A stretch of DNA of 64,000 nucleotides from Candidatus Thorarchaeota archaeon (GCA_046758445.1 JBHIAE010000009.1:1-64000); one strand, 5' to 3'; shown: positions 45,528 through 63,136, counted from the stretch's first letter. Translations and numbers: made by a program. Notes: a model not told the origin generated them from the sequence alone.

Positions 45528-46766
45528 TCACCACCTGCTAGAAACGAATGAGAAGAAGTTGCGAAAGGATTCAGCATTATCCCCTAGGACAATGATGTGG
45601 TGGTTTCCAAGAGGTTCCTCGAGGAAGTAGTCAACAGGCTCATCCATTTGTACCTCAATCTGTGTTCGGCATGCAGTGTCACTATCAAGGTTCTTTGTTA
45701 TCGTGCCTCCTGACACCCAGTATTCTGAAAGTCCCCTTCCGAAGACCTTGAGTGCTGTTACTCTCTGTGGAGAGATTATTCCCCGTATTGCAACACTTTT
45801 CCCAGACTCGTAGTGACTCATAATGTCGTACTCGTCAGCCAACGAGGTTGCTATCGTGCAGTGGGCGAATACGGCCTTGTTAGAGTCAGGATTCACATGA
45901 GCGACATTTGCCATGAAAGAAGGTTTGGAGGTCAGAGCCTTGGCCACCAACATAGTGAATGTTGCAGGAATGTCTCCCTCGCAGCCAGCTACAAGTCCTT
46001 CTTTGTCATTCAGAAGGGATAGGGCATGGCAGCCGGATATGTCAGTGTGTTCAAGTAGAGTGAAGCATTCAACCGAAACAGCATCAATGCCTGCACTAGC
46101 CACGAACTCGTCCAACACTTTTGCGGCGAGGGCTGCCTTCCCGAGCTCTTCGTCACTTGTCATGTTTGACCTTGCATCCCGTACGAATCCTTCAGTTGCT
46201 CTACTCTGAAACCCTTCAAGATCTTCCTTCAGACTGGTTTCTACTACATCAATCGAAAAGCTCTCAATCAAAAGACCCCAACGTTGCTTCACGGATTCAA
46301 CATCAACTTGCGAGGCAACGAGCCAGAAAGAAGGGTTCCCAACAATTCCAAGGCGACTATTCCTGATCTTGTCCTCGACTTCTGAGAATCGGCTCCATTC
46401 CTGAATCATGTCAGACAGCAAGTTGAGTGGAGAATGAATGATTCTGGAGTTCATTCCCTGCTGTTGAAGATACGCTCTAGTCTCCATGGCCGCTGGTAGC
46501 GAGTTGTTACCAGGGTGGCTCAGCAATATGATAGGGTCTGCCAGTCCAGCCTGTGCCATGAAATCCGATACGGCCTTTTCAGTTCCACCAGTTCCCACAA
46601 ACAGGTAGGTGTGACGGTCACGGATGTCCGGCTTCTGTTTGGCGTTTCGTAGGAACTCCTCCGGCGTAAGAACATCGGCTCCGGGTACAGTGATGTCCTT
46701 GACAAGCTGTGATTTCGTTTCTTCCGGCGTTATGGGAGATAGAATTGGTATAATGTTGATTGCCAT
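45528..46766 (-). CDS. L-fucose/L-arabinose isomerase-like protein
   Basis: 'VGTGGTE', 'NSLPAAME', 'CF', 'GCEGD', 'AHCT', 'CRTQ', 'LGNHH'. Confidence 0.8.
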   Translation of the reverse strand: MAINIIPILSPITPEETKSQLVKDITVPGADVLTPEEFLRNAKQKPDIRDRHTYLFVGTGGTEKAVSDFMAQAGLADPIILLSHPGNNSLPAAMETRAYLQQQGMNSRIIHSPLNLLSDMIQEWSRFSEVEDKIRNSRLGIVGNPSFWLVASQVDVESVKQRWGLLIESFSIDVVETSLKEDLEGFQSRATEGFVRDARSNMTSDEELGKAALAAKVLDEFVASAGIDAVSVECFTLLEHTDISGCHALSLLNDKEGLVAGCEGDIPATFTMLVAKALTSKPSFMANVAHVNPDSNKAVFAHCTIATSLADEYDIMSHYESGKSVAIRGIISPQRVTALKVFGRGLSEYWVSGGTITKNLDSDTACRTQIEVQMDEPVDYFLEEPLGNHHIIVLGDNAESFRNFFSFVSSRW

Positions 46767-49646: not shown

Positions 49647-49877
49647 TTTCTGTATACCTCCTTGAGGAAAACACAGAATCGGCAACAGTGGGTTTGTGCC
49701 CATTGGCTGTCGATAGAGTCCTCTTCCCCGAGAGGACCACGATCAGAAGGAATAGACATCACGAGGAAGAGGAAGCCTGTACTAGCTCACACTAGTATTG
49801 TGGAACCAATACGGGTGTGTTGTGTTTCCTCGTAACATTGTTGTGATTCTCTCTTCGCCAGAGCTCGCATATAACGG

Positions 49878-50498
49878 TTGGTTTCTCCGTATTTCGGGCT
49901 GCAGAAGGTACATCTACGCGTTCATTTGGCGACCTGTCCAACCTGCTCCAAGATGCTGGTGATTGTGAAGATGGTCGAGGAGGGAGCAGGCGTGACAGGA
50001 ATGGACCACTGTCACAACAACCACACGGTCACGTACATCAGCGACATGCTCAAGGTCACTTTGAGCACGCCCACACCGGTAGTGACTCCAGGTGTCGAGG
50101 TCACGGTCAACGTGGCCGTGGTCTATGCCCATGACGACTCAGCCGTTGGTAATTACTTCGCGGAAATCGACCGTGATGCGATTGCCCTTGTCACGATCAA
50201 TGAGACAGACCCGTCCTTCACTGTCTTGGAAGAGATTGCGATAAGTCATGTCTAATTGGTATCAGGTGCCAGTGAGAGCCTCTACGGAATCACGGAAGTC
50301 TACTCGAGCTATCAGCTCACAGTGACCTGGGGGGAGGCAGGTGAGCCTGGCCTTGGATTCCCGCCGCCTGATAACAGGACCACGACAACGACTGAGTACG
50401 AGCCAGCACCGGTCAGTCTTGTGTGAATGACGGTCCGTATTAGAGGGATGTTCATCTTCCTCTACATGACCCGGGATTCTCGGGGTGTACGTAGATGA
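49878..50498 (+). pseudogene. C-terminal remnant of a cell-surface protein
   Basis: One frame read through TAA 50253 and TGA 50424: beta-rich segment, 'SESLYGITE...VTW', Pro/Thr linker 'RTTTTT', degenerate TM and RR tail. Confidence 0.55.
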
Positions 50499-50627
50499 AT
50501 GCTGACGAACAGGCGATCTACAGGACCGACACTCTTGAGAGGTGGATAGAGAGAATGCCCCGGTGGACTGCAAGAAAGGCCAGGAACAGGCTGAAGCGTC
50601 GTTAGAGTCTGATCTGCACGTGGAGAG

Positions 50628-51099
50628 TCAATAGGACCTGAGAATTATCTTTTCATCGCGTTCTTTAAAGGTGATTTCGAAGTTCCAGTATATCGTATCA
50701 CGTCCGAGAACCACGTAGGGAATGTTTCCTTCAATCTTGGGTATTTGAATGGGGCAATTAGGGAACTCGCAGAAGGGCTTGAGGCCCTTCAAAAATGGCA
50801 ATGTTGACATTGCTAACGAATATGGGAATCACGCCGCCAGCCCCACGGGCACTGTCCTCCTCTTCCATAAGGAGTTCTAAGGTCTCTGCGAGCTCAAGTG
50901 GTATGAACGAGCATGTTGCCCCGGAGTCAACCAAGACTGGAGTCCGAAAGGATATGCCCTTGTGCTCCAGATACACGAAAATCATTGGCAATCGATAGGC
51001 AGTACCGTCCTCTTCTCTGAATGTCCTATATTTGCAGACGATCTTTAGTCTCTTCCTTCTGGAATACGTCTTCTCAGAAGGCACAAATGAGCCCCTCAC
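50628..51099 (-). pseudogene. Retropepsin-like (clan AA) aspartyl protease, frameshifted
   Basis: 'LVDSGA' in 50758..51099 and 'VLGRD' in 50628..50810; the two join by a one-base shift at the A5 run 50791-50795. Confidence 0.8.
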
Positions 51100-51290
51100 A
51101 AGAGCATGACTTCATTCCTTGGCACTTTCATTATGAAGGGCTCACGATCTGGATACTTCTTCTTTGCCTCACGGAATACGGTCTTTCCAGAATCAACAGT
51201 GGCCACGATTTCCTTATCAACTAGTGCAACCCACTTACCAATGTGCTCCCCCAGATCTGACATCGACATGATGATGTCAAACTTATTCAT
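51096..51290 (-). CDS. DUF5678-like small protein
   Basis: 'GKWVALVDKEIVAT...FREAKKKYP..EPFIMKVP'; overlaps the protease ORF by 4 nt. Confidence 0.8.
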   Translation of the reverse strand: MNKFDIIMSMSDLGEHIGKWVALVDKEIVATVDSGKTVFREAKKKYPDREPFIMKVPRNEVMLL

Positions 51291-51487
51291 TTTTTCTTCA
51301 CCATTGCGAGATTCTCCTAACAACTGTGGGCCGGCTCTACAAGAAAGTCAGTTCAAACCCCCTGTGTTGCTCTCCATGTGGCAGTATCGCAAAAGTACGG
51401 GACTTTCGCACACATTGATCGCTTCTATTTCAATAGATATAGTCTTGTATCTGACTAAACACTAACTCTTCACACGGAAACTTCGGA

Positions 51488-51721
51488 CTATCCCTTCAAT
51501 GCTCCACCGATGGCCACGACTCCAAGAACCACAATCATCAACATGAGTGTCACCTGTGTGTTCATTGGCGTGACACCCGTAAAGAACGCCCATAGGCTGC
51601 CAGTCATCTCTTGGAGCTGAAACTCTACAGTGTTGACATAGCGGTTCAGAACGTCAAAGGCCAGATACATCAATAACAGGGTCGAGAGCACAGAGGCTCC
51701 TTTCGCTACTCCACCCATCAC
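51488..51721 (-). CDS. Small 2-TM membrane protein
   Basis: SD GAGGTGA; two hydrophobic helices. Confidence 0.65.
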   Translation of the reverse strand: MMGGVAKGASVLSTLLLMYLAFDVLNRYVNTVEFQLQEMTGSLWAFFTGVTPMNTQVTLMLMIVVLGVVAIGGALKG

Positions 51722-51899
51722 ATCACCTCAATAGGTGTCTGCAGCAAGGTTGGATGGGAAACAGTGAGGATTGTCCTCGATGATCTCAAAAGACCCTACC
51801 ACCGACACCATACATTGGCTCCATTTCTACTTGAATTGTGTTTCGGTAACCTTTCATGTGGAAACTCTCTCAAACAGGTCGTCAATCTCGCCTAGATGC

Positions 51900-53156
51900 T
51901 CAGTAGGCATTATCGGACCTCGGAAACCAAAGTCTTACCCGAGTGCCCTGATCTGGATGACCAATCACTCGGTCGTGAACATCGATCCTACCCCCGTACT
52001 TCTCTAGGACCTGGCGTGTCTGATGCAGACCAAGTCCACCATATCGACGTGCAGGGTCAAGTAGTTCTGTCTTACGGGCGTCTGAGATGCCTGGGCCGTC
52101 GTCTGCAATGGTCACTTCGTAGCCGCCGTGACTCTCCTCAAGCTGTATCCAGACATGCTTGTCCTCCGTCGGGTTGTGCCTGACCGCGTTCTCCATGATG
52201 TTGAGCAGCGCAGCCTCTGCGAACTCGTCTGCCCACACAAGGGCGTCCTCCACCTTGCAGTCGGTCTTGATGCTGGAGTCCCTGTGAATCGCCGAGAAAG
52301 AAGCCACACACTCCTGCAGAAGGTTGTCAAGTGGCCTCTCTTCTAGGTGAACCTCCATGAGGCGGCTCAGGTCCCGGACCTTGGAGATTATGCTTCTGCA
52401 GGCATCGCTAGAGACCAGGATCGTTTCAAGAAGATCGCTGACGTCAACGAAGTTCGGGTCAGTGCGGACTATCTCCGTACTCAAGATTATGGACTGCAGA
52501 TGATTGGCGATGTCGTGGCTCATGAGATCGACGTAGAGGAGAGACCTGCTCCTCATTCTCCGAAGGCGCTTCTCTATGTATACATGGTCTAGGCGGGTTT
52601 GGATCGTCTCCAGACCATAGCTCAAGTTTCGGGCCAGTCTGCTGAGCAGTGTCAGCTCATCCTCGTCAAACGCATAGGGCTCTGGAGCGTAGACGTTCAG
52701 TGCTCCATAGGGCTCATCGCTGACATGCACAGGGATGGCCACAGAGGATGCGTAACCGCGTTTCACCGCCTCAGCTCTCCACGGCTTGAATGAGGGGTCT
52801 GTGAGAATACTCTGTGCCACGCAGGGCTCGCCTGTTCTTATGGCTGTCCCGGTGGGGCCACGGCCTCTCTCTGTGTCAGCCCATGTGATACCCATCTTCT
52901 CAAGATAACCGTCCTCGCATCCGCATGCCGCTACAGGGAGCACAGTCCTCTCCTCATCGTGACGGACAAGTCCAAACCAGGCCAATTTATACTCAGCCTC
53001 CTCCACAATGATTCTGCAGACGTCCGCCAACAGCTCTGACTCATCCCTTATGCTGATCAGTGCCTCGTTGCATGCGCTGAGCGCTCGGAGTGCCCTATTC
53101 TCTCTCGCAAGGACACTGTTCGACTCCTGTCGGGCTGCTTTCCTTGTGGGACTCAT
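51900..53156 (-). CDS. GAF-domain sensor histidine kinase
   Basis: GAF 'GRGPTGTAIRTG...YASSVAIP'; H-box 'LMSHDIANH'; N box 'NIMENAVRH'; G1 'DDGPGI'; G2 'GGLGL'. Confidence 0.92.
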   Translation of the reverse strand: MSPTRKAARQESNSVLARENRALRALSACNEALISIRDESELLADVCRIIVEEAEYKLAWFGLVRHDEERTVLPVAACGCEDGYLEKMGITWADTERGRGPTGTAIRTGEPCVAQSILTDPSFKPWRAEAVKRGYASSVAIPVHVSDEPYGALNVYAPEPYAFDEDELTLLSRLARNLSYGLETIQTRLDHVYIEKRLRRMRSRSLLYVDLMSHDIANHLQSIILSTEIVRTDPNFVDVSDLLETILVSSDACRSIISKVRDLSRLMEVHLEERPLDNLLQECVASFSAIHRDSSIKTDCKVEDALVWADEFAEAALLNIMENAVRHNPTEDKHVWIQLEESHGGYEVTIADDGPGISDARKTELLDPARRYGGLGLHQTRQVLEKYGGRIDVHDRVIGHPDQGTRVRLWFPRSDNAY

Positions 53157-55272
53157 TGCTTCACCTCGATTCCTGGGGGCCATTCAACAGGTATAGAGGT
53201 AGCCAGACTCCAGTCAGTCAATCCTCTTGCGATAATGTTGAGCCCTTCAAGGCTGGCGAGGCCTTCTCGAGGTGGCGCTCCTTGTATGACTCTCGTCTTT
53301 GCTATCCCTTGACTATGAGAGCCTATGCATCCCTATTATATTACAGTATTACGTAATTAAATAACTTATAGAAAAGTTCTCCGCAGGTCTCACCTTGGCC
53401 AAGGCTTGAGGACAGAGGAAAGTGTGGAAAGGTGATGAGGAGGTTGCCGTACAAGATCCACTCGTCACCAACGCGGGCTCTGAGATCCCTCAGGACCTCT
53501 ACCTTGACGCTGTATGACGTACCTATAGTCTAATCAATTGCATTAGTTTCAACCCTAACATACGAAATAACACATTTGGGGGGTGTCACGAATGTCCTGC
53601 CCTCATGAGCCCAATGGGCAAATCGGCTTGACAGAGCTGGCCCTCAATCTGTTCCCCACTTTGCATGAACAGACTGATCTAGTAGAGCTCCTCTTCTTCC
53701 TATGGGATGACATGTCATTATGCTGATGTTACCACTGTTTCACGCATTCGGAGTCGCCATCCAAGATGAAGTGTGGTCAGTGTCAGCAGGACACAGTGTG
53801 GTAGGAGGGGGGGAGTTATGTTATGAGGGCATGTTACAAAACTAGGCCCTACTGACTACTTGACCACAGCTTTTCCATTGATATGCCTCCTAATAAGCTC
53901 TGCATCTGATATGATTCCATTGACCAGTGTGAATGCGATCGGGGCTCCAATCTTACCCCAGCGGAGGTAGGAGAATCGTGACTTACAAATCTCAGGTCCT
54001 ATGCACTTGTAGTTCGAGTGGTAGGAAGGCTACAATTAAGGTTTCATCCATCGTGAATCCATCCAGCAATCCGAGGTCCCGCCTATCCAACGCGCCTTTT
54101 GCGTCCCGCGATTCCTCTCTGAACTCCTTGGAAGACAGCCATTCCGGAAACGATATAGAGTGAACTGAGGATTTGCCAGACTGTAATAGGATTCAGATCC
54201 ATAGGCAGGCCAGAGGATATCTTCACTTCTAGGTTCAATTCAGCTACTAAGGGTATCACTGGAGTGACCAACAAGCGGTATAGGACCTTCAAGGTCCTAG
54301 GTCTATCATGGTCCCATCGATGCACACGATTTCAGCGAGTCCCGATCTCTCAATTGACAGCGCGAGATAGCTCATCAACCAAGACGAATCAAAGAAGAAA
54401 CGACAGTAGAAAAACCAGCTCGTAGATTCTGAATAACCGTATGAGAGATGTTGGATTCAATTCATTCTGCATAACCAAGTCTGTTTCGACGCACATCCAT
54501 GTGCTGCCACAATCTTCGGAAGCCACAGGAAGAAGGCCTGATAGAGCAGCCGCCGCCGTGGGAGAGAATGGGAGTGAACGAGCCGTATAGACGTACTTGG
54601 GATCCATGGTAGGATTCTTCATTCATGCCAAAGCTGAGGCGTCCGTGTGTTGCGCAGGGATTGGATCATGCCTACTGGATGCTGCTTGAGCGTCATGAAG
54701 GCGGGAGCTAGGATCAGAGAAACACAGGACGCAGGCACGCTTGATTACTCAATCGAGCTAGATGGAGTTCTTCCTTGGTCCTTTTCGACAATGAGTCTAC
54801 AAGATGATGCACAAAGTCTTCTACACTTGTCCGAGATATCACCTCGGAGATAATGGCAGATGAAATGCTTCGCATTGGTGACTGGAGATATTGAGAGCTG
54901 TTCCAGCAGTCCGTTGATGCCACAGTGCTCTGCAATGCAAGCGTCGATCCGGTTCACAACTCTGTCCTCTCCGAGTCCATTGAAACTGATAGTCCGCCCG
55001 TGGAAACTGTGAGTCTTCACGAGTTCGCCGCGGCGGATCTAAGGACCAAGAAGGGGAACGGTTGTAGTGATTCGGTAGAATATTCTGCTGTCACCATCGA
55101 GACTGCTCACCGTAGGTTTTACATATCATTAATCCGACTCCTACCACGGAGAAGAGCGAACAGGGATTGCCTGAAACTCATAAGTCACAAGAGGCATTAT
55201 GAGTCTTGCACCGTTCACCAAATCATATTTGAACCTGTGTTGGCAAGACATCCTCCCGCAATGATATCCAGT

Positions 55273-56310
55273 TTAGTACTCCATAGGAAGCACGATTTTG
55301 AACGATGCTCCTTTTCCTGGTTCGGGCTCTGCAAGCTCTATGGAACCGCCCATTGCCTGAACAATCTCCCTCGAAAGGTACAGGCCCAGACCCCCTCCAG
55401 GTCGTGTTGAGCCACCTCTCGTGAATAGTATGGCCCGAACTTCCTCTGCGATTCCCGGGCCATCATCAGAAACCACAATCTGAACCTCATGATCCGTTCT
55501 TCCCACCCAAACGTCAATATTGGGCTTTTCGCCCGCATATGTGGCCGCGTTCCTGAAGAGATTATCGAATACCATGGGCAGTAGCACGCTCTCCGGGACT
55601 CTCACATCTTCAGTGCCCCTATCCGCATCAATAGAAATAGTGAGGTTCATGCTGGCCTCTTGCGCCTGCTCAGACACTTTTCGAATGAGCTGGATGATGT
55701 TTGTCTCAGCCATCTTGGATGAACGACCAAACGCATTGAGTAGACTCAACATACGCTCACAGACAGCCTCGGTGGAAACAAGTAGCTCCCCGACTATTTC
55801 GCACACATCAACCGTTAGCATTCTGAATGCGTCTACATTGCCTAGAATGATGCCAACATCGTTCTTCATATCATGACGTAGGAGTGAGGCATATAGCTCC
55901 AACTCCCTGTGCTGGAGTTCTCGGGACCTCTCCATTTGCTTGCGTTCCAAATAGCTTCCCAGTTCAGAAGCGATTGTTTCGATGAGATCACGTTCCAATT
56001 TGAGAAATGGGCCCTCGTCGGCCGCCGGTTTCTCGGACACATAACGGACATCTATCCTACCTGCCTTCCTGCTGAAGGTCCAGATGTCAGCGGACTGAAC
56101 CCACGGGGTCTCGACATAATTGACTGACATCACTTCCTTGTTCTCATACTCGATTTTTGAACAAGCCTCATCAGGATACTGCCATCCTTCAACCAAGAGG
56201 TGCACCAGAGTATCAAGCACCTCGTCAATTGGCTTCTCGTATTGTGAGAAAAGCCTTGAGATGTTGCGTAGACATATGACCCCGTGAGCAACTCCACTAC
56301 CATCTGTCAA
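55273..56310 (-). CDS. Cytoplasmic sensor histidine kinase (GAF-like input)
   Basis: H-box 'LLRHDMKND', 'NLFRNAA', 'DDGPGI', 'GGGLGL'. Confidence 0.92.
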   Translation of the reverse strand: MTDGSGVAHGVICLRNISRLFSQYEKPIDEVLDTLVHLLVEGWQYPDEACSKIEYENKEVMSVNYVETPWVQSADIWTFSRKAGRIDVRYVSEKPAADEGPFLKLERDLIETIASELGSYLERKQMERSRELQHRELELYASLLRHDMKNDVGIILGNVDAFRMLTVDVCEIVGELLVSTEAVCERMLSLLNAFGRSSKMAETNIIQLIRKVSEQAQEASMNLTISIDADRGTEDVRVPESVLLPMVFDNLFRNAATYAGEKPNIDVWVGRTDHEVQIVVSDDGPGIAEEVRAILFTRGGSTRPGGGLGLYLSREIVQAMGGSIELAEPEPGKGASFKIVLPMEY

Positions 56311-56610
56311 TGAAATCCCCCGGATCGATTCATCCTTATCTTATCTAAAGTGGTCGTTCCAGTCTGAATCCCGAGTTGTGAATGCATCCCTATTCTCAGG
56401 CAGCTTCTGGATTGTCGACGCGAATTCCGATATTGTAGGTTCTATATATGTGTAGATGTGACCTCATATGGCTCTCAGCAATATTGTCTGGATGGATGTT
56501 GTTGATTTCTCCCAACAAGATTCTTAATGATTGGAGCCAGACATGAAGAGTGAAGCTCCGGGAAGGGTGCCAGAGCCCTCCGCGAGTCCAAACCCTAGGT
56601 TGGTAATCAG

Positions 56611-57708
56611 ATGGAGAAAATGCAGCTCCTTCTCTCTCTTATCGAAGGAACTAACGATTTGATTCATAGTGTTGAACCGGATGGCAAGTTCGAGTTCGTC
56701 AATCGGGCATGGATAGAAACCCTAGGATACTCAGACAAGGATGTTGGCGGCCTCCGCCTGAAGGACATACTGTTTCCAGGACACCTTGGAACTCACCAAA
56801 AGCTGGTTTCGAGGGTTCTCAAGGGAGAGAGTGAAACAGGTGTGGAAGTAGTCTTCGTGACCAAAGATGGCCGTACTGTCAACGTCGAGGGGAATCTCTT
56901 TCCCCGTAAGGAGGGAGGCAAGATAATCTCCGCGACAGGATTCTTCCGTGACATAACCAGCCGCGTGCAAACTGAGAAGAGGCTGGAAGAGTCAAAGGCA
57001 CGCACTGAGTTCTTTGTTGACCTCATGGTTCACGACCTAATGAACATAAACCAAGAGATTCTGTCAACGTTTGAGATTCTTCTCTTGAGTAAAGACCTAC
57101 CCTCTCAACTTGGGGGGCTGATTCGAGAGAGTCTCGCTGAGCTGGAACGAGCCTCAAGCCTAGTAGGGAATGTCAGAAAGATCACTCAGCTACATGCGAA
57201 AGTTCCAGAGGCCACGGAGTGGGACCTCAAGGAGGTCATATCCTCTGCGGCCAAATCAGCTGATGAAACATTTCCTGACAAGAAGCTCCATTTGCAAACT
57301 GACCTCGCTCCCGGTCAGTATATGGTCATAGCTGACGAGTTTCTAGAAGACGTCTTCCTTAGTCTTCTACACAACTCCATGAAGTTTGACAAGAGCCAGG
57401 ATGTCCAGATTGAGATCGATGTCGAGCCCATAAAGCATACTCCGTTTTTGCGGATAGAGATCAAGGACTACGGGCCCGGAATTCCTGATGAGGAGAAAGA
57501 AATGGTGTTCGACAAGCTGTCACATCGGAGAGAAAGCATAATGGGACTCGGACTAGGGCTTACCCTTGTGAAGACCGTGTTGGACAACTATGGAGCATTC
57601 ATTCGTGTTGAAGACAGAGTAGAAGGCGACCACACGAAGGGCGCCAATTTTGTCATACTCATGAGGCATGCAGGAGTGAACCGCTTAGGCCGGGAGGGTG
57701 ATAAGTAG
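56611..57708 (+). CDS. PAS-domain histidine kinase
   Basis: PAS 'FVNRAW...LGYS...RDIT'; 'LMVHDL'; 'NSMKF'; 'DYGPGI'; 'GLGLGL'. Confidence 0.93.
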   Translation: MEKMQLLLSLIEGTNDLIHSVEPDGKFEFVNRAWIETLGYSDKDVGGLRLKDILFPGHLGTHQKLVSRVLKGESETGVEVVFVTKDGRTVNVEGNLFPRKEGGKIISATGFFRDITSRVQTEKRLEESKARTEFFVDLMVHDLMNINQEILSTFEILLLSKDLPSQLGGLIRESLAELERASSLVGNVRKITQLHAKVPEATEWDLKEVISSAAKSADETFPDKKLHLQTDLAPGQYMVIADEFLEDVFLSLLHNSMKFDKSQDVQIEIDVEPIKHTPFLRIEIKDYGPGIPDEEKEMVFDKLSHRRESIMGLGLGLTLVKTVLDNYGAFIRVEDRVEGDHTKGANFVILMRHAGVNRLGREGDK

Positions 57709-58070
57709 TGGTAGCAGTAATGATTGTAGACGATGACGTGTTCCTACATAAGGTACTTGAGCGCATTTTGAGTATAGGGGGTCACTCAGTGATGGAGCAT
57801 GCCTATAACGGGGCTGAGGCAATAGAGAAGTATGTGGCTCTGAACCCAAGACCAGACATTGTCCTAATGGACCATCGGATGCCTGTGATGAACGGAGTAA
57901 CTGCAACACGTGAACTCAAGGAGATCGACTCGTCAGCAGTTGTCGTGTTCATTAGTGCTGACGACACAGTAAGAAACGAAGCGATGAATGCAGGTGCCCT
58001 TGGTTTCCTCACAAAGCCAATTCGGAGCACGGACCTCTTCGCAGCATTGGAGGACTATGTTCCATCTTGA
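57708..58070 (+). CDS. Stand-alone response regulator receiver (CheY-like)
   Basis: 'IVDDD', 'LMDHRMPVMNG', 'ISA', 'KP'. Confidence 0.94.
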   Translation: MVAVMIVDDDVFLHKVLERILSIGGHSVMEHAYNGAEAIEKYVALNPRPDIVLMDHRMPVMNGVTATRELKEIDSSAVVVFISADDTVRNEAMNAGALGFLTKPIRSTDLFAALEDYVPS

Positions 58071-58181
58071 CAGGGATTATGGGAATGTGACGAGGCACTT
58101 GACGTGAAGGTGACTCCTATGACCTGTGATGTCATTGCATCACATGGAGGTACCGGGGGAGAAGAATTCACCACACAGGCC

Positions 58182-58894
58182 TACTCAGAACTGTCAAACT
58201 AAATCCTTCTACTCATACTTAACAGGTCTTCGGACGTCGCCCCCTATTCACACGAGTTTGTAATGGGTAGCCTCGATGCCGAAGTCATCTCAGGCCTTGT
58301 GACCGCTATGACGAACTTCATGGGCGAGATGATGGGGGAAGAGCGGGCTTAGTAGATGACAGAATATGGTTCTGATTGCACGCTTCTCGTTGAGGGCGAT
58401 GAATGGGCCGTAGGTGTTGTTTCATTGGGAAAGAAACAACAGAGGCAAGATGTAGGCAATGACGTGTGATCACAGAGTTTGAGGATTGCCTTTCCGCCCT
58501 GAGGGATGTTGATGGAATAGAAGGAGGGGCGTTCGGAGAGTTTGACGATTATGTCAGGCGAACTTTCGTCGGCGATAGACTATCCAGAAAGTCCATCATC
58601 CTGAAGGGGCCCGACTGGTTCATCATCGCAGCATCGTGTGAACTGCCCGGTTGATGATACAAAGTCATGCAGTCGCAAGTGCATGTGGAAATGTCAACGA
58701 GACAGATACCAATCATCCAGAGAACCATTCTCCGGGTCAAGCCCATCGATCAAATGGCAGATGAACAAGATGAGAAGTATCCAATCTCCGCTCCTGAACT
58801 TCGCCGTCATTTGGCCGCCGAAGCGGCTGAGCGTGATCTAGAAAGCATTAAGACCAGGGGTCTGGTGGAACTCAGGAGCTCGTTCATACGTTGA
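58182..58894 (+). pseudogene. Decayed Asgard-type longin-like domain protein
   Basis: Reconstructed 'ILLLILNRSSDVAPYSHEF...LDAEVISGLVTAMTNFMGEM...**..EYG...LLVEG..WAVGV / KETTEAR..*RVITEFE'; stops at 58200, 58350, 58353 and 58460 plus a frameshift. Confidence 0.6.
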
Positions 58895-59130
58895 ACGGAG
58901 CCATTCTGTTAAGGTGTGTAACCATAGACTGCATCAGGACCAAGTCATCAGCTGGCGAAATATGCGTGGCCAGCTGGTGCAACTCTTTTTGATATCCTCT
59001 CGGATTATGTATCCTCATGACAAGTACGTTGGGGTGTGTTTCGGAGCACAACAGGATTCATATCACACCCGTCAAAATAGTCACTGATTGCCTCAGTATC
59101 AAGTTAGCGTGGAATTGAGGGCGTCCGAAT

Positions 59131-61944
59131 ATGCGAGTCACTCGAAGAAAGAGCAACTATGTCATTCTTTTCCTTTTACTTGCTCTTGCCGGTGTATCTG
59201 GATCAGGCTTCGTCTTCCTTTCGCAGCCGGCCCGTCCCCCTCCTGACACGTTCATCATGGAAGTAGATGGGGACCCTGACTCGATGGACCCTCATGTTAC
59301 CGATGACGTCTACGGCGCCCGAGTCTTCTACAATGTCTACGAAACCCTGTATACATATCCATGGGGCACCGCGGATACCGAACCATCAGTTCCACTCTTG
59401 GCCGCGTCCGCGCCAGTGATCTCTGCTGATGGTCTGCAGTACAACATCTCGCTTCGTCAAGAAGTAATCTTCCACGATTATACCCCTTTCAACGCCAGCT
59501 GTGTCAAATGGAACATCGAGAGAGCAGCCAAGATGTTTGATGTCAGTGGTCCGGCATGGATGATAATCGAGCCGCTCAAAGGAGGTGGGACTCTCAAGAC
59601 TGAAGCTTTCGTAAACGGTACGAACTCGCCTGAGTTTGCAGCAGCGTTCGATGAATGGCAGGCGAATTCGAGTGCAGTAGTCGTGTTAGACACATTCACG
59701 GTCCAGTTCAACTTGGAGCGTCCATTTACGCCATTCATTGCGACAATGACTCACTCGGTCGGTTCTATGATGAGTCCGACCTGTGTTCTGACAAACTCCG
59801 TCAACGACACTGGCCCAATGGACTCTCACTGGGGTGTCCATTATGGTGAAACGTCCACATTCATGGGAACTCATACATGCGGTACTGGTCCGTACATGCT
59901 GGATGAATGGAGGCCTTACGAGTTTCTCAAGTTGGACTTGTTCGAGGACTACTGGAGGATCTATACGGTTGACACGGCTATTGCTCCATTTGTCCCCGCC
60001 GGTCTTATTGAGAGCGTCTACATCAATGTGAACGAAGACGTGATTGGGAGACTGCTGAATCTGAGGACCGGTCTAGTAGATTATGCTGACTGGCCGTCAA
60101 TCCACGCGGACGAGGTCTGGGTCAATGACTCGATTGGTTCCAGGGACACAAATCTTGAGGTAAGAACAGGTGGCCTGAGCTATTCGGTGACGGCGCTCAT
60201 CTTCAACTTAAACCTAAACCGCATCAACATCACCCGGTATGGAGAAGAAAGGAAGGTCCAGAGCCCGTTCGTGTACAGAGAACTTAGGAAGTGCTTTTCC
60301 TACGCTTTCAACTACGGTGAAGCAATCGATTCGTTGCTTGGAGGTTGGGGCATTCAAGCCAAGGGCTTCATTCCGCAAGGGATGTTCGGTCAGAACTCTT
60401 CCTACTGGCTAGAGCATTATGACATTGATGAAGCTGTTGACTGGTGGAACCAAGCGATGCTGCTGCCAGGTTTCGTCGAAACCATGAACAACATGTCAGG
60501 CTACATTGACCTATACTACGATTCTGGCAACGAGATTCGAAGGCAGGCTGCATTACTGGTGAAAGATTGTTTTGCCGCAGTCTTGGCGAATCCTGCCACG
60601 AACCTGACTGGGATCCCCGTAATCCCAGAAATCAGGGTCAGCGCCCTCCGCTTGACCGACTACATTGAAGCTTTGGAAGACGGTGAGCTTCCCTTTTGGC
60701 TCGTCGACTGGGCGCCGGACTATGCTGATCCACACAACTACGCCTACACTTTCGTACACTCGCAGAGCAGGCACATGAGCGCTAGCGGCTACGAGAATGG
60801 CACTGTTGACGAGTGGATTGTCAATGCTTCAATGTCTTCAGACCAAGTCCAAAGGATGGATCTCTACAACAGGATTCAGGAACAGGTTTCCTTTGACCAG
60901 CCTAGCATCTACATGTATCAGCCCCAACAGTTCACTGTACATAGGGCTTGGCTCAAGGGCATAGGTCTCGTGTTCAACCCAATGCACGACTTCTACATCT
61001 TTGAAACCTTCAAGGACTACGAAGACGACTTTTACTATGCGCCTTCGCCAACGTACTTCGATCCTTTGTTCTCACTTGGCATGCTACTAATTGCTGCCGT
61101 ATTCATCTCTCTTCTGGAGCGAGCCTTCAGCAGCCGAGGTGGATCATGCATCAATCTCTTCATGCTATTGATAGTACTCTTCTTCCTAGTTCCGTTTCTG
61201 ATGAACCCAGTTCTAATCTTTCAGTTCTTCTTCAATCCGGCATCTGCAGTCATATTCTCCATCCTAGGGATACTCCTAGTGTTCGAACCAGATCCGGAAC
61301 GCAGCATAGAGCAGGGTGCTACGTATTATCCATGGGCGGACTATCAGATAGCTCCTAGTGGACAGAAACCCTTAGAGTCGGACGCCACAATGGATATGCA
61401 TGATGCAAGGTACTCCTCAACTATTCATGAAGTCGCAGATGACGACTCCAGACCAACACGAGATTCGCAGACTACAGAAATGGAGTTCACAGAAGCCAGA
61501 TGGTTTGAAGAGGAAGAGAGTGATAGCCCTGTGGCCATTCTCATCAGAACAATGGCTCACGGCATAGCGTACTCCACTTTGATCTACCTTGTCGGCTTCG
61601 ACATGGTATTCATGTTCTTCTGGTTATTCGGACCGGCATCGGCCCTCGGCTTCTTCATTGGAATAGGACTACTCTTCATAACAATGGGATGGTCAAATCG
61701 AGCCTTGACGAATAGACTCTGGAGAATCGAGAGCAGTGACCGATGGCTTTCCCTATTCTTCCACGGAGTGCTTCTCTTCTGTGGCTTCTACATCGTGTAT
61801 ATCGTTCAGATGTATGTTTTTGCAATTCTAGGGATAACGTACTTCTTGTACCCTCTGGCATTTTCACCAGTCAACATCATAGTGGGCGCAATGCTTGATG
61901 GACACCTTGCAAAGGTGATAGCAAGTATATGGCGTGTGACTTGA
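59131..61944 (+). CDS. Family-5 (Opp/Dpp-type) solute-binding protein fused to a multi-pass (~7 TM) membrane region
   Basis: 'DSMDP', 'NVYETL', 'FHD.TPFNA..VK.NIER', 'GTGPY', 'W.PDY.DP'; then 3 TM, an acidic loop and 4 TM. Confidence 0.85.
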   Translation: MRVTRRKSNYVILFLLLALAGVSGSGFVFLSQPARPPPDTFIMEVDGDPDSMDPHVTDDVYGARVFYNVYETLYTYPWGTADTEPSVPLLAASAPVISADGLQYNISLRQEVIFHDYTPFNASCVKWNIERAAKMFDVSGPAWMIIEPLKGGGTLKTEAFVNGTNSPEFAAAFDEWQANSSAVVVLDTFTVQFNLERPFTPFIATMTHSVGSMMSPTCVLTNSVNDTGPMDSHWGVHYGETSTFMGTHTCGTGPYMLDEWRPYEFLKLDLFEDYWRIYTVDTAIAPFVPAGLIESVYINVNEDVIGRLLNLRTGLVDYADWPSIHADEVWVNDSIGSRDTNLEVRTGGLSYSVTALIFNLNLNRINITRYGEERKVQSPFVYRELRKCFSYAFNYGEAIDSLLGGWGIQAKGFIPQGMFGQNSSYWLEHYDIDEAVDWWNQAMLLPGFVETMNNMSGYIDLYYDSGNEIRRQAALLVKDCFAAVLANPATNLTGIPVIPEIRVSALRLTDYIEALEDGELPFWLVDWAPDYADPHNYAYTFVHSQSRHMSASGYENGTVDEWIVNASMSSDQVQRMDLYNRIQEQVSFDQPSIYMYQPQQFTVHRAWLKGIGLVFNPMHDFYIFETFKDYEDDFYYAPSPTYFDPLFSLGMLLIAAVFISLLERAFSSRGGSCINLFMLLIVLFFLVPFLMNPVLIFQFFFNPASAVIFSILGILLVFEPDPERSIEQGATYYPWADYQIAPSGQKPLESDATMDMHDARYSSTIHEVADDDSRPTRDSQTTEMEFTEARWFEEEESDSPVAILIRTMAHGIAYSTLIYLVGFDMVFMFFWLFGPASALGFFIGIGLLFITMGWSNRALTNRLWRIESSDRWLSLFFHGVLLFCGFYIVYIVQMYVFAILGITYFLYPLAFSPVNIIVGAMLDGHLAKVIASIWRVT

Positions 61945-62175
61945 TTGGTTAGTCAACTGGAACAAGGATCACAGCGGGGGAGTCCCAGAAGAGAAAGAAG
62001 TTGCGGAGCCCTGAGGCTCCAAGAATCAACTAGAAATCATCAACCTCTGAGGCTGGTTTCCTGACTCCAACACACAAGGACCCGTAGCTTGTCAGTTTCC
62101 ACTGCCCATGTTTGTTTCGGGCGACTGTGACAGGTCTCGGTGAGTCGGCTCCTCCACTCTCAATGAAGATGGGGC

Positions 62176-62541
62176 TCAGAATCCATAGACAAGACCCAAA
62201 CCGAGGAAGATGGCTAATGCCATAAAGACGATTGTGAGTAGCGCTAGCAATCTGTGCACAAGGAGGTGCCTCTCCCGAGTCAGACCCAACCGGGCTCTGC
62301 TGTATCCCGTTAATGCTGTTATGACTGCCAAGACGAGAGAAGCGGCACCTATCCATGTATGTGGATAGAAGAAGTGAACGCCTTCGCCAAGTGACACCAT
62401 GTAGAACGCCGCAAAGAAACCAGCGACTACTGCTGCACCAAGAGTTGCGATTAAGCGATGGACCCGCAGCCACCATCTTCGCTGCCTCATGAACCTAGCG
62501 ATCAAAACTGTGAAGATGAAGAGGATGATCGCTGTTGTCAT
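62176..62541 (-). CDS. 4-TM His-rich membrane protein, cytochrome b561/DUF4079-like
   Basis: 'WLRVHR', 'HFFYPHTWIG', 'LLVHRLLA' His pattern resembles the heme ligands of b561-like domains. Confidence 0.7.
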   Translation of the reverse strand: MTTAIILFIFTVLIARFMRQRRWWLRVHRLIATLGAAVVAGFFAAFYMVSLGEGVHFFYPHTWIGAASLVLAVITALTGYSRARLGLTRERHLLVHRLLALLTIVFMALAIFLGLGLVYGF

Positions 62542-62611
62542 AGTCCCTGCGTAAACCTGCCATAATTCAATCTGCGCTACTCAGCGTGGCCTCCTTCAGT
62601 CTCTGCCAAGG

Positions 62612-63136
62612 CTATCTTCTTCTGGCAACCATGACCACCACCATTACTAATCCAAGAGCAATGACCACTCCTGCTATGAGAAGCGTGGTCGGGAAGAAGT
62701 CAAGTTCTCCGTTCGTTCTGCCACCGTTGGTGGTCGTAGTTGTCGTTGTTGTTTCTGTTGCGGGCTCAGACACCGTAAGGGTCCGTTGGTTAATGCCGCC
62801 AAGTACGCATTCGGCCCACACCCTCAGCACATCACCATCAGTCGCAGCAACTACAAACGTGTCACTTGCAGTGAAGCTACTCTCTTGATTAGTATAGAGA
62901 GATGAAGTGAATTTGACGTCATTCTTGAATACGGTAATGTTCTCAATGTAGTGTGAGTTAGGATCTCCAACAGTGTGTGAGATTGTCACAGTAAGCTCTT
63001 GTGAATTCCAGTCATACAGAAGTGTCATGTTCGAGGGTGCATGGGCCGTCACAGGTGCTGGAGCCATTGTGGCAGCGATGAATACAACGATCGCAGTAAT
63101 CACAAAGACCCTAGAAGCTGAAAGTCGTCTACTCAT
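62612..63136 (-). CDS. Surface-anchored desulfoferrodoxin/SOR-like metal-binding protein
   Basis: Signal peptide ending VTA|HAP; 'SHTVGDPNSHYIENI'; 'WAEC..GG'; poly-Thr linker, TM and RRR. Confidence 0.65.
   Translation of the reverse strand: MSRRLSASRVFVITAIVVFIAATMAPAPVTAHAPSNMTLLYDWNSQELTVTISHTVGDPNSHYIENITVFKNDVKFTSSLYTNQESSFTASDTFVVAATDGDVLRVWAECVLGGINQRTLTVSEPATETTTTTTTTNGGRTNGELDFFPTTLLIAGVVIALGLVMVVVMVARRR

What the first reader, a model, noticed from the sequence alone, without database searches (positions are those of the whole stretch)
59131..61944. Orphan peptide-binding domain fused to ~7 TM helices: a receptor-like architecture
Seen: one 937-aa ORF containing a signal/anchor, a complete family-5 solute-binding domain, 3 TM helices, a ~80-aa acidic Ser/Thr-rich loop and 4 more TM helices. 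No ABC permease or ATPase lies nearby, and the gene follows a histidine kinase/receiver cluster. Established: archaeal family-5 SBPs are normally held by a single anchor and work with OppBCDF. Eukaryotic class C GPCRs and iGluRs combine periplasmic-binding folds with membrane domains, although class C uses a type I fold whereas family 5 is type II. Inference: this may be a peptide-sensing membrane receptor with a cytoplasmic loop after TM3, analogous to (not shown homologous with) eukaryotic binding-domain receptors.
Basis: partly seen in the sequence, partly recalled or inferred. Interest (0 to 1): 0.8.

Follow-up and report, generated by a model that had tools for sequence, protein, structure and literature searches.

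The report
Peptide-binding protein fused to ABC-linked membrane module
A Thorarchaeial (Asgard) peptide-binding protein is really and conservedly fused to seven membrane helices, but the last four are a lineage-specific module that elsewhere is built into ABC-importer subunits, so it looks more like a transporter-tethered binding protein than a receptor.

Summary
ORF 59131-61944 encodes 937 aa: N-terminal anchor, complete family-5 solute-binding domain (SBP), 3 TM helices, a 91-aa acidic loop and 4 more TM helices. The fusion is no read-through: it stays in frame in three other species of the genus and in further metagenome proteins (58-59% identity).

The receptor reading is not supported. 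The histidine-kinase/receiver cluster is absent next to the orthologues. No output domain exists, and the loop sequence is poorly conserved.

New here: the last four helices (residues 804-935) form a membrane module almost confined to the window's own archaeal family. It has no Pfam model and no fold match among solved structures. Mostly it is a small stand-alone protein. Apart from zinc ribbons, every fusion to a recognisable domain found here is to an ABC-importer part: this SBP, the second ATPase domain and a permease of Bmp-type importers, and possibly an OppB.

The SBP half is a recent duplicate (62% identity) of the genome's own operon-encoded SBP beside oppBCDF. It keeps the Asp aligned with DppA D408.

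Best reading (about 0.45): a peptide-binding subunit held at an Opp/Dpp-type importer by this module. A sensor role is not excluded (about 0.15).

The parts
58667..58894 (+). Conserved small ORF (75 aa; likely start at the Met at residue 9) upstream of every fusion locus
   Evidence: 64-81% aa identity upstream of all five fusion loci (L026, L027, L028, L060 and the window), and absent from the other loci fetched. No Pfam match and no informative Atlas match.
58943..58990 (+). Conserved hairpin (10-bp stem with one G-T pair, CATCAGCTGG / CCAGCTGGTG) followed by T5: terminator-like element ending the small ORF's transcript
   Evidence: Conserved in four genomes in alignment A3; sequence read.
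59034..59064 (+). Conserved 31-nt block with an A/T-rich TATA-like box (ATTCATATC here, GTTAATATC in orthologues), about 70 nt before the ATG: probable own promoter
   Evidence: 84% identity to the orthologue loci, against a background that does not align. Promoter function is inferred.
59131..59220 (+). Residues 1-30: cytoplasmic RRK plus N-terminal signal anchor, homologous to the anchor of the operon SBP paralogue
   Evidence: Hydropathy; the alignment to the C36 paralogue starts at residue 27 and the N-termini look similar.
59221..61026 (+). Residues 31-632: extracellular family-5 (OppA/DppA-type) solute-binding domain
   Evidence: Pfam PF00496 at E 2.3e-47. 62% identical to the genome's own C36 SBP, which lies beside oppBCDF. 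D530 aligns with DppA D408. 12 sequons.
61051..61290 (+). Residues 641-720: three TM helices found only in the fusion orthologues (conserved ERA, FQFFF-P-S and LLVFEPDP motifs)
   Evidence: No homologue outside the fusion orthologues. No similarity to the 4-TM module HMM.
61291..61539 (+). Residues 721-803: cytoplasmic acidic, disordered linker, equivalent to the N-terminal cytoplasmic tail of stand-alone module proteins
   Evidence: pLDDT below 50. 21-22 D+E in all orthologues, with poor sequence conservation. Aligns with the tail of the same-genus stand-alone protein L029:9367-10104.
61540..61935 (+). Residues 804-935: 4-TM module (motifs HG, G-x-x-N, W, HG, D-G-x-x-A-K at the cytoplasmic face; glycine-rich turn between helices 1 and 2)
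   Evidence: Family HMM E 1.8e-38. Alignment A2 invariants. AlphaFold domain model pLDDT 91.4, pTM 0.84. Distribution.

Best explanation
The gene encodes a membrane-integral peptide-binding subunit of an Opp/Dpp-type ABC importer, not a stand-alone receptor. The extracellular family-5 SBP domain is a recent duplicate of the SBP encoded beside oppBCDF on contig C36. It would bind peptides with a free N-terminus and deliver them to a permease encoded elsewhere. Three lineage-specific TM helices and an acidic cytoplasmic linker join its C-terminus to a 4-TM module. Both ends of that module lie in the cytoplasm, so an odd number of connecting helices is required. In other genera of the same family this module is built into the second nucleotide-binding domain and onto a permease of Bmp-type ABC importers. 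I infer that it packs in the membrane against ABC-importer TM domains, or against another copy of itself. That would hold the binding domain at its transporter, as covalent SBD-TMD fusions do in OpuA or GlnPQ. Shown: the architecture, its conservation, the topology indicators, the origin of both halves, and the repeated ABC fusions of the module. Inferred: docking, the identity of the partner permease, and peptide binding.
For: (1) The fusion is conserved in frame: P0002-P0005 (940-942 aa, 58-59% identity) and genomes G368, G378 and G379. G371 has a 73%-identical SBP cut by its contig end, with the same upstream small ORF. The identical 937-aa protein is on record from 3 contigs. (2) The closest non-fused paralogue is the genome's own C36 SBP: 62% identity, 647 aa, ending where the extension starts, divergent to oppB-oppC-oppD-oppF. 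G379 shows the same arrangement (L062). (3) D530 aligns with DppA D408 and is invariant in the orthologues. (4) The module family is almost confined to one archaeal family: 57 of 85 genomes there, and 2 of about 314 other genomes of the phylum. (5) Every fusion of the module to a recognisable domain other than a zinc ribbon is to an ABC-importer part. It is inserted between the Walker A segment and the signature/Walker B segment of NBD2 in the ATPase of Bmp-SBP/BPD_transp_2 operons (L064:2247-4556, L065, L066, L067). Three further clusters of 708-712 aa from independent sources show the same ATPase fusion. It also sits N-terminal to the BPD_transp_2 permease of one of those operons (L064:4556-6628). 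P0044 carries the module followed in frame by an OppB N-terminus. (6) Synteny: the fusion gene sits where another genus has three tandem stand-alone module genes, between the homologue of window 45528-46766 and MetRS. The loop plus module aligns with a whole stand-alone protein of the same genus.
Against: No interaction has been shown. This genome has no module on its own OppB/OppC, and its only other module copy (C1:82887-83507) is not near a transporter. Most family members are stand-alone proteins with coiled-coil or zinc-ribbon tails, and none of the 20 loci inspected had Opp-type genes beside them. The module may therefore be a general membrane anchor. The P0044-type OppB fusion rests on one metagenome sequence with a downstream frameshift, and it was not found in 86 genomes. 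A single helix would suffice for tethering, so three well-conserved extra helices remain unexplained.
Confidence: 0.45

Rival explanations
1. Passive polytopic anchor. The 7-TM region only fixes an orphan binding protein in the membrane. The module is a general anchoring or oligomerising unit for many soluble domains, with no specific docking to a transporter.
For: In this archaeal family, family-5 SBPs carry many kinds of anchor. These include an N-terminal anchor only, a poly-Thr stalk plus one TM (C63, C80), an unrelated 4-TM extension (L052, L053, L057, L058; 760-780 aa), and giant repeat stalks. Most module proteins carry unrelated cytoplasmic tails.
Against: The conserved cytoplasmic-face motifs (HG, N, W, HG, DG-AK) and 51-60% identity of the TM parts among orthologues exceed what a mere anchor needs. 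The repeated capture by three different ABC-importer subunits is not explained.
Confidence: 0.25
2. Peptide-sensing membrane receptor. Closure of the SBP on its ligand is transmitted through the TM helices to the acidic loop or the cytoplasmic face of the module, which then regulates a partner.
For: The SBP is coupled tightly at both ends, with about 12 residues to the first C-terminal helix and no Thr stalk. The invariant residues of the module lie at the cytoplasmic boundary. A conserved small cytoplasmic ORF accompanies every fusion locus. Kinases and a receiver lie upstream in this genome.
Against: No known output domain is present. The HK/RR genes are absent from the orthologue loci. The loop sequence is not conserved. 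The module occurs without any sensor domain in most proteins and inside ABC ATPases. No GPCR-like or channel fold match was found; the best Z was 5.9-6.8, within noise for helical bundles.
Confidence: 0.15
3. The 7 or 8 helices themselves form an SBP-dependent non-ABC transporter or channel, analogous to TRAP or TTT systems.
For: A binding protein is fused to a polytopic domain with no transporter gene nearby. There is a glycine-rich hairpin between module helices 1 and 2.
Against: The module has only four helices, with its conserved polar residues at the membrane boundary rather than in the core. It is inserted into ABC systems that already have full permeases. There is no similarity to any transporter family in Pfam or among solved structures.
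Confidence: 0.07
4. Assembly or read-through artefact joining an SBP gene to a separate 4-TM gene.
For: P0006 is a 154-aa protein, 91% identical to residues 784-937, and could be read as a separate gene.
Against: P0006 lies on a 2198-nt contig and is most simply a fragment. The whole frame, including the variable loop (91-93 aa), is kept in at least seven other sequences at 58-59% identity.
Confidence: 0.02

Closest known systems
OppA/DppA-type family-5 (cluster C) substrate-binding proteins of ABC peptide importers
   Same: Full SBP_bac_5 domain. The Asp aligned with DppA D408 is kept. The closest paralogue is encoded beside oppBCDF.
   Different: No transporter genes at the locus. The C-terminus continues into 7 TM helices instead of ending, or ending in one anchor helix.
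Archaeal membrane-anchored SBPs with a Ser/Thr-rich stalk and a single C-terminal TM helix (the genome's own paralogues C63 and C80)
   Same: Extracellular, sequon-rich binding domain held in the membrane.
   Different: No Thr stalk, and seven helices including a conserved module rather than one helix.
ABC importers with binding domains covalently fused to the permease (OpuA, GlnPQ; from established knowledge)
   Same: The proposed logic is the same: the binding domain is held at its transporter on a short tether.
   Different: There the fusion is to the permease itself, and the binding domains belong to another SBP family. Here the fused membrane part is not a permease (no BPD_transp match), so any link to the transporter would be non-covalent.
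Receptors with periplasmic-binding-fold ligand domains (class C GPCRs, iGluRs, BvgS-type kinases; from established knowledge)
   Same: A binding-protein fold outside, joined to a polytopic membrane part.
   Different: No GPCR, channel or kinase domain and no significant fold match. The context does not support signalling.
Pfam DUF4013 membrane proteins (Atlas structural neighbour only)
   Same: TM-score 0.51 over 126 residues to the Atlas model of residues 795-936.
   Different: No sequence match. DUF4013 has no known function. This is a lead only.

Membership tests
SBP_bac_5 (PF00496) OppA/DppA-type binding proteins | Match to the family profile above the curated cut-off over nearly its full length | tested here: met
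   162.3 bits against a cut-off of 32.4; profile positions 3-364 of 368.
SBP_bac_5 (PF00496) OppA/DppA-type binding proteins | Asp that binds the peptide alpha-amino group (DppA D408; its role recalled from the literature) | tested here: met
   The phmmer alignment to 1dpp places D530 opposite D408. D530 is invariant in 5 orthologues.
SBP_bac_5 (PF00496) OppA/DppA-type binding proteins | Encoded with its permease and ATPase genes | tested here: not met
   No BPD_transp_1 on contig C9 and no transporter ATPase among the neighbours. The 62%-identical paralogue on C36 does have oppBCDF.
ABC importer permease (BPD_transp_1 / BPD_transp_2) | Profile match of the TM region | tested here: not met
   No Pfam or NCBIfam match after residue 611, even at E up to 1.
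Class C GPCR / iGluR-like receptors | GPCR 7-TM or pore-forming channel fold in the membrane part | tested here: inconclusive
   Foldseek found nothing at E <= 0.001. VIA-align gave a best Z of 6.8 (archaeal Dol-P-Man synthase TM domain) and 5.9 for the module alone, within the noise for helical bundles.
Two-component sensor kinases | HisKA/HATPase_c or another output domain in the same protein | tested here: not met
   SBP_bac_5 is the only Pfam family found.
Two-component sensor kinases | Conserved linkage to kinase or receiver genes | tested here: not met
   Orthologue loci L026 and L027 carry a double wHTH regulator instead. The kinases lie in a genome-specific island.
Thorarchaeial 4-TM module (family defined here, alignment A2) | Four helices with HG at the start of helices 1 and 3, G-x-x-N and W after helix 2, and G-x-x-A-K after helix 4 | tested here: met
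   HMM E 1.8e-38 over residues 804-935. Invariant G811, N856, W864, G879 and G924; near-invariant H810 and H878.

The most novel reading that the evidence does not exclude
The 4-TM module is a new transmembrane coupling device of archaeal ABC importers. It sits beside the permease and links binding protein, permease and ATPase. In this fusion it relays occupancy of the peptide-binding domain across the membrane to the ATPase or another cytoplasmic partner. The protein would then be a true binding-domain receptor built from transporter parts.
Probability: 0.15. Interest if true: 0.8.

Novelty: new variant of a known kind. Interest (0 to 1): 0.45.

Why it matters
Substrate-binding proteins of ABC importers are normally free, lipid-anchored, held by one helix, or fused directly to the permease. 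Here one is joined to a conserved polytopic module. That same module has been inserted into an ATPase domain and fused to a permease of other importers. This suggests a previously undescribed way of assembling or regulating ABC importers in Asgard archaea. It also defines a membrane protein family with no profile and no solved relative. A membrane insertion inside a nucleotide-binding domain is itself unusual. The result removes the support for a eukaryote-like receptor reading, and it leaves a concrete hypothesis that can be tested by multimer modelling or pull-down.

Tried and rejected
- Pfam and NCBIfam gave nothing for the TM region. Pfam on 63 module proteins gave only zinc ribbons and spurious weak hits.
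- A profile search of PDB sequences gave only PEN-2 at E 0.03.
- Foldseek and two VIA-align searches found no convincing fold relative.
- The Atlas feature search gave no hit.
- A profile search for longer proteins found none, but it also missed the known fusions, so it is uninformative.
- Rfam found nothing in 53000-59300.
- The double wHTH regulator of the orthologue loci has no remnant in the window.
- P0006 as evidence for split genes was rejected, because it lies on a 2.2-kb contig.
- A P0044-like module-OppB fusion was not found in 86 genomes.
- The idea that the N-terminal anchor plus the three helices are a split copy of the module was rejected. The anchor is homologous to that of the C36 paralogue, and the HMM does not match the three helices.
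- Two literature searches gave nothing relevant.

Full report
**Observation.** The window holds one open frame of 937 codons at 59131-61944 on the + strand.
- Pfam finds a nearly full-length SBP_bac_5 domain at residues 87-545 (E 2.3e-47). NCBIfam gives only sub-threshold matches to GsiB, DppA, NikA and OppA models.
- Hydropathy shows an N-terminal anchor (about 11-30), three hydrophobic helices at about 645-717 and four at about 810-915.
- An AlphaFold model of residues 636-937 gives three helices of low confidence, a disordered stretch and four long helices of high confidence. The last 142 residues modelled alone reach pLDDT 91.4 and pTM 0.84.
- The loop 718-809 has 22 acidic and 7 basic residues.

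**Topology.** Several indicators agree.
- The SBP part carries 12 N-x-S/T sequons where composition predicts about 4. The orthologues carry 13-14. No sequon occurs after residue 640.
- Basic residues lie at the N-terminus, between C-terminal helices 1 and 2, between module helices 2 and 3, and at the C-terminus.
- Stand-alone relatives of the last four helices carry zinc ribbons on either end. Both module termini should therefore be cytoplasmic.
- Together this gives: N-terminus inside, SBP outside, three helices, acidic loop inside, four helices, C-terminus inside.

**Not an artefact.**
- Four database proteins of 940-942 aa align end to end at 58-59% identity, including the loop, which differs by only two residues in length. 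Sources name them Thorarchaeota/Promethearchaeota.
- Three other species-level genomes of the same genus carry the fusion in open frames of 957-965 codons.
- A fifth genome has a 73%-identical SBP cut by a contig end.
- The exact 937-aa sequence is on record from three contigs.
- The 154-aa protein P0006, which could suggest a split gene, sits on a 2.2-kb contig and is best read as a fragment.

**Origin of the two halves.**
- The closest non-fused relative of the SBP part is the genome's own SBP on contig C36. It is 62% identical, 647 aa long, has an N-terminal anchor only, and ends exactly where the extension begins. It is divergently adjacent to oppB, oppC, oppD and oppF. A sister genome shows the same arrangement (L062).
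- Two further paralogues in this genome have the classical archaeal poly-Thr stalk plus a single C-terminal helix.
- The three helices at 641-720 have no homologue outside the fusion orthologues.
- The loop plus the last four helices align with a whole 245-aa stand-alone protein of the same genus.
- The fusion gene occupies the position where another genus has three tandem stand-alone genes of that family. That position lies between the homologue of window 45528-46766 and methionyl-tRNA synthetase.
- The gene thus arose in this genus by joining a duplicated operon SBP to a resident small membrane-protein gene.

**The 4-TM module.**
- Residues 804-935 belong to a family with invariant or near-invariant HG at the start of helices 1 and 3, G-x-x-N and W after helix 2, and G-x-x-A-K after helix 4. 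All of these lie at the cytoplasmic face.
- A search of 1.84 billion representative proteins found 68 members, nearly all of 90-330 aa.
- A profile search of 400 genomes of the phylum found the module in 57 of 85 genomes of the window's own family, at 1-8 copies each. It found it in only two genomes elsewhere.
- There is no Pfam model, no PDB sequence relative and no convincing fold relative. The best Z scores were 6.8 and 5.9, within noise for helical bundles.
- The Atlas points weakly to DUF4013 (TM-score 0.51).

**Decisive context.** I inspected every module hit that lies in a long open frame.
- In four genomes of two genera the module is inserted into the double-NBD ATPase of complete Bmp-SBP / ATPase / BPD_transp_2 operons. 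It sits between the Walker A segment and the signature/Walker B segment of the second nucleotide-binding domain.
- Three further clusters of 708-712 aa from independent sources show the same ATPase fusion.
- In one of these operons the next gene carries another module copy N-terminal to its permease domain (L064:4556-6628).
- A metagenome protein, P0044, has the module followed in frame by an OppB N-terminus. This single case was not found again in 86 genomes.
- The other long forms are tandem or 8-TM versions without a known domain.
- Zinc ribbons aside, every recognisable partner is therefore an ABC-importer component, and all three component classes are represented.

**Against the receptor reading.**
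- The three kinase genes and the receiver gene lie in a stretch of about 9 kb. In the syntenic orthologue locus the interval is about 3 kb and holds a double winged-helix regulator, of which no remnant exists in the window.
- Between the receiver and the gene lie a conserved 75-aa ORF, a conserved hairpin with a T-run, and a conserved promoter-like block about 70 nt before the ATG. The gene most likely has its own transcript.
- The protein has no output domain, and the loop sequence is not conserved.

**Mechanism proposed.**
- The SBP domain keeps the Asp aligned with DppA D408 (the role of D408 is from memory of the DppA structures). It is as similar to the operon SBP as the fusion orthologues are to each other.
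- I therefore read the protein as an additional peptide-binding subunit feeding an Opp/Dpp-type permease, probably the C36 system.
- The module would hold it at the transporter by packing against permease helices or against another module copy.
- This last step is inference from the fusion pattern and nothing more. A passive anchor, a sensor and a novel transporter remain as rivals.

**Wider pattern.** This archaeal family decorates family-5 SBPs in many ways. One is a second, unrelated 4-TM C-terminal extension (760-780 aa) sampled in three genomes of two genera. Similar frames of 764-796 codons occur in about ten more genomes and were not inspected. These genes have no Opp-type genes beside them. 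Polytopic tails on binding proteins are therefore recurrent here.

**Verdict.** The receptor interpretation is weakened but not excluded. The most useful outcome is the recognition of a lineage-specific membrane module linked to ABC importers.

Noticed in passing
L064:2247-4556, L065:2241-4385, L066:1-1812, L067:1058-2455 (other genomes of the family); P0074-P0076: ABC ATPases of Bmp/PnrA-type importer operons carry the 4-TM module inserted inside their second nucleotide-binding domain. L064 also has two hydrophobic helices inside the first domain. A membrane insertion within an ABC ATPase domain is unusual.
   Followed up: partly
L052:1277-3577, L057:1205-3499, L058:228-2510, L053:1302-3644: A second class of family-5 binding proteins (760-780 aa) has an unrelated 4-TM C-terminal extension. 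It was sampled in three genomes of two genera, and similar frames of 764-796 codons occur in about ten more genomes. No Opp-type genes lie in the immediate flanks.
   Followed up: partly
window 58667-58894: A conserved 75-aa ORF lies upstream of all five fusion loci, followed by a conserved hairpin terminator. It has no family match. It could be a functional partner or a regulator.
   Followed up: partly
window 49700-58070: The kinase/receiver cluster, with the retropepsin-like genes, forms an island of about 9 kb relative to the syntenic locus of a sister species. There the interval is about 3 kb and holds a double winged-helix regulator.
   Followed up: partly
window 53184-55272: A 2.1-kb stretch between two kinase genes has no ORF longer than about 90 aa on either strand apart from a 161-aa frame that runs into the next kinase gene and has no Pfam match. 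There is also no Rfam match.
   Followed up: no
window 62030-62541: Only the last 46 residues of the DUF6935 gene remain (89-98% identical to the orthologues). The alpha/beta-hydrolase gene that lies between it and the b561-like gene in sister genomes is missing. This looks like a deletion in this genome.
   Followed up: partly
window 62176-63136: A b561-like 4-TM protein (Pfam Cytochrom_B561 E 1.1e-4, just below the cut-off) is paired with a 174-aa protein that has a faint desulfoferrodoxin-like match. The pair is conserved next to the fusion gene in sister genomes.
   Followed up: partly
L054:1309-4983, L061 (3175+ aa), L055:1690-4617: Family-5 binding domains are also found at the head of very long surface proteins with repeated domains and one C-terminal helix, and as a tandem double-SBP protein.
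   Followed up: no
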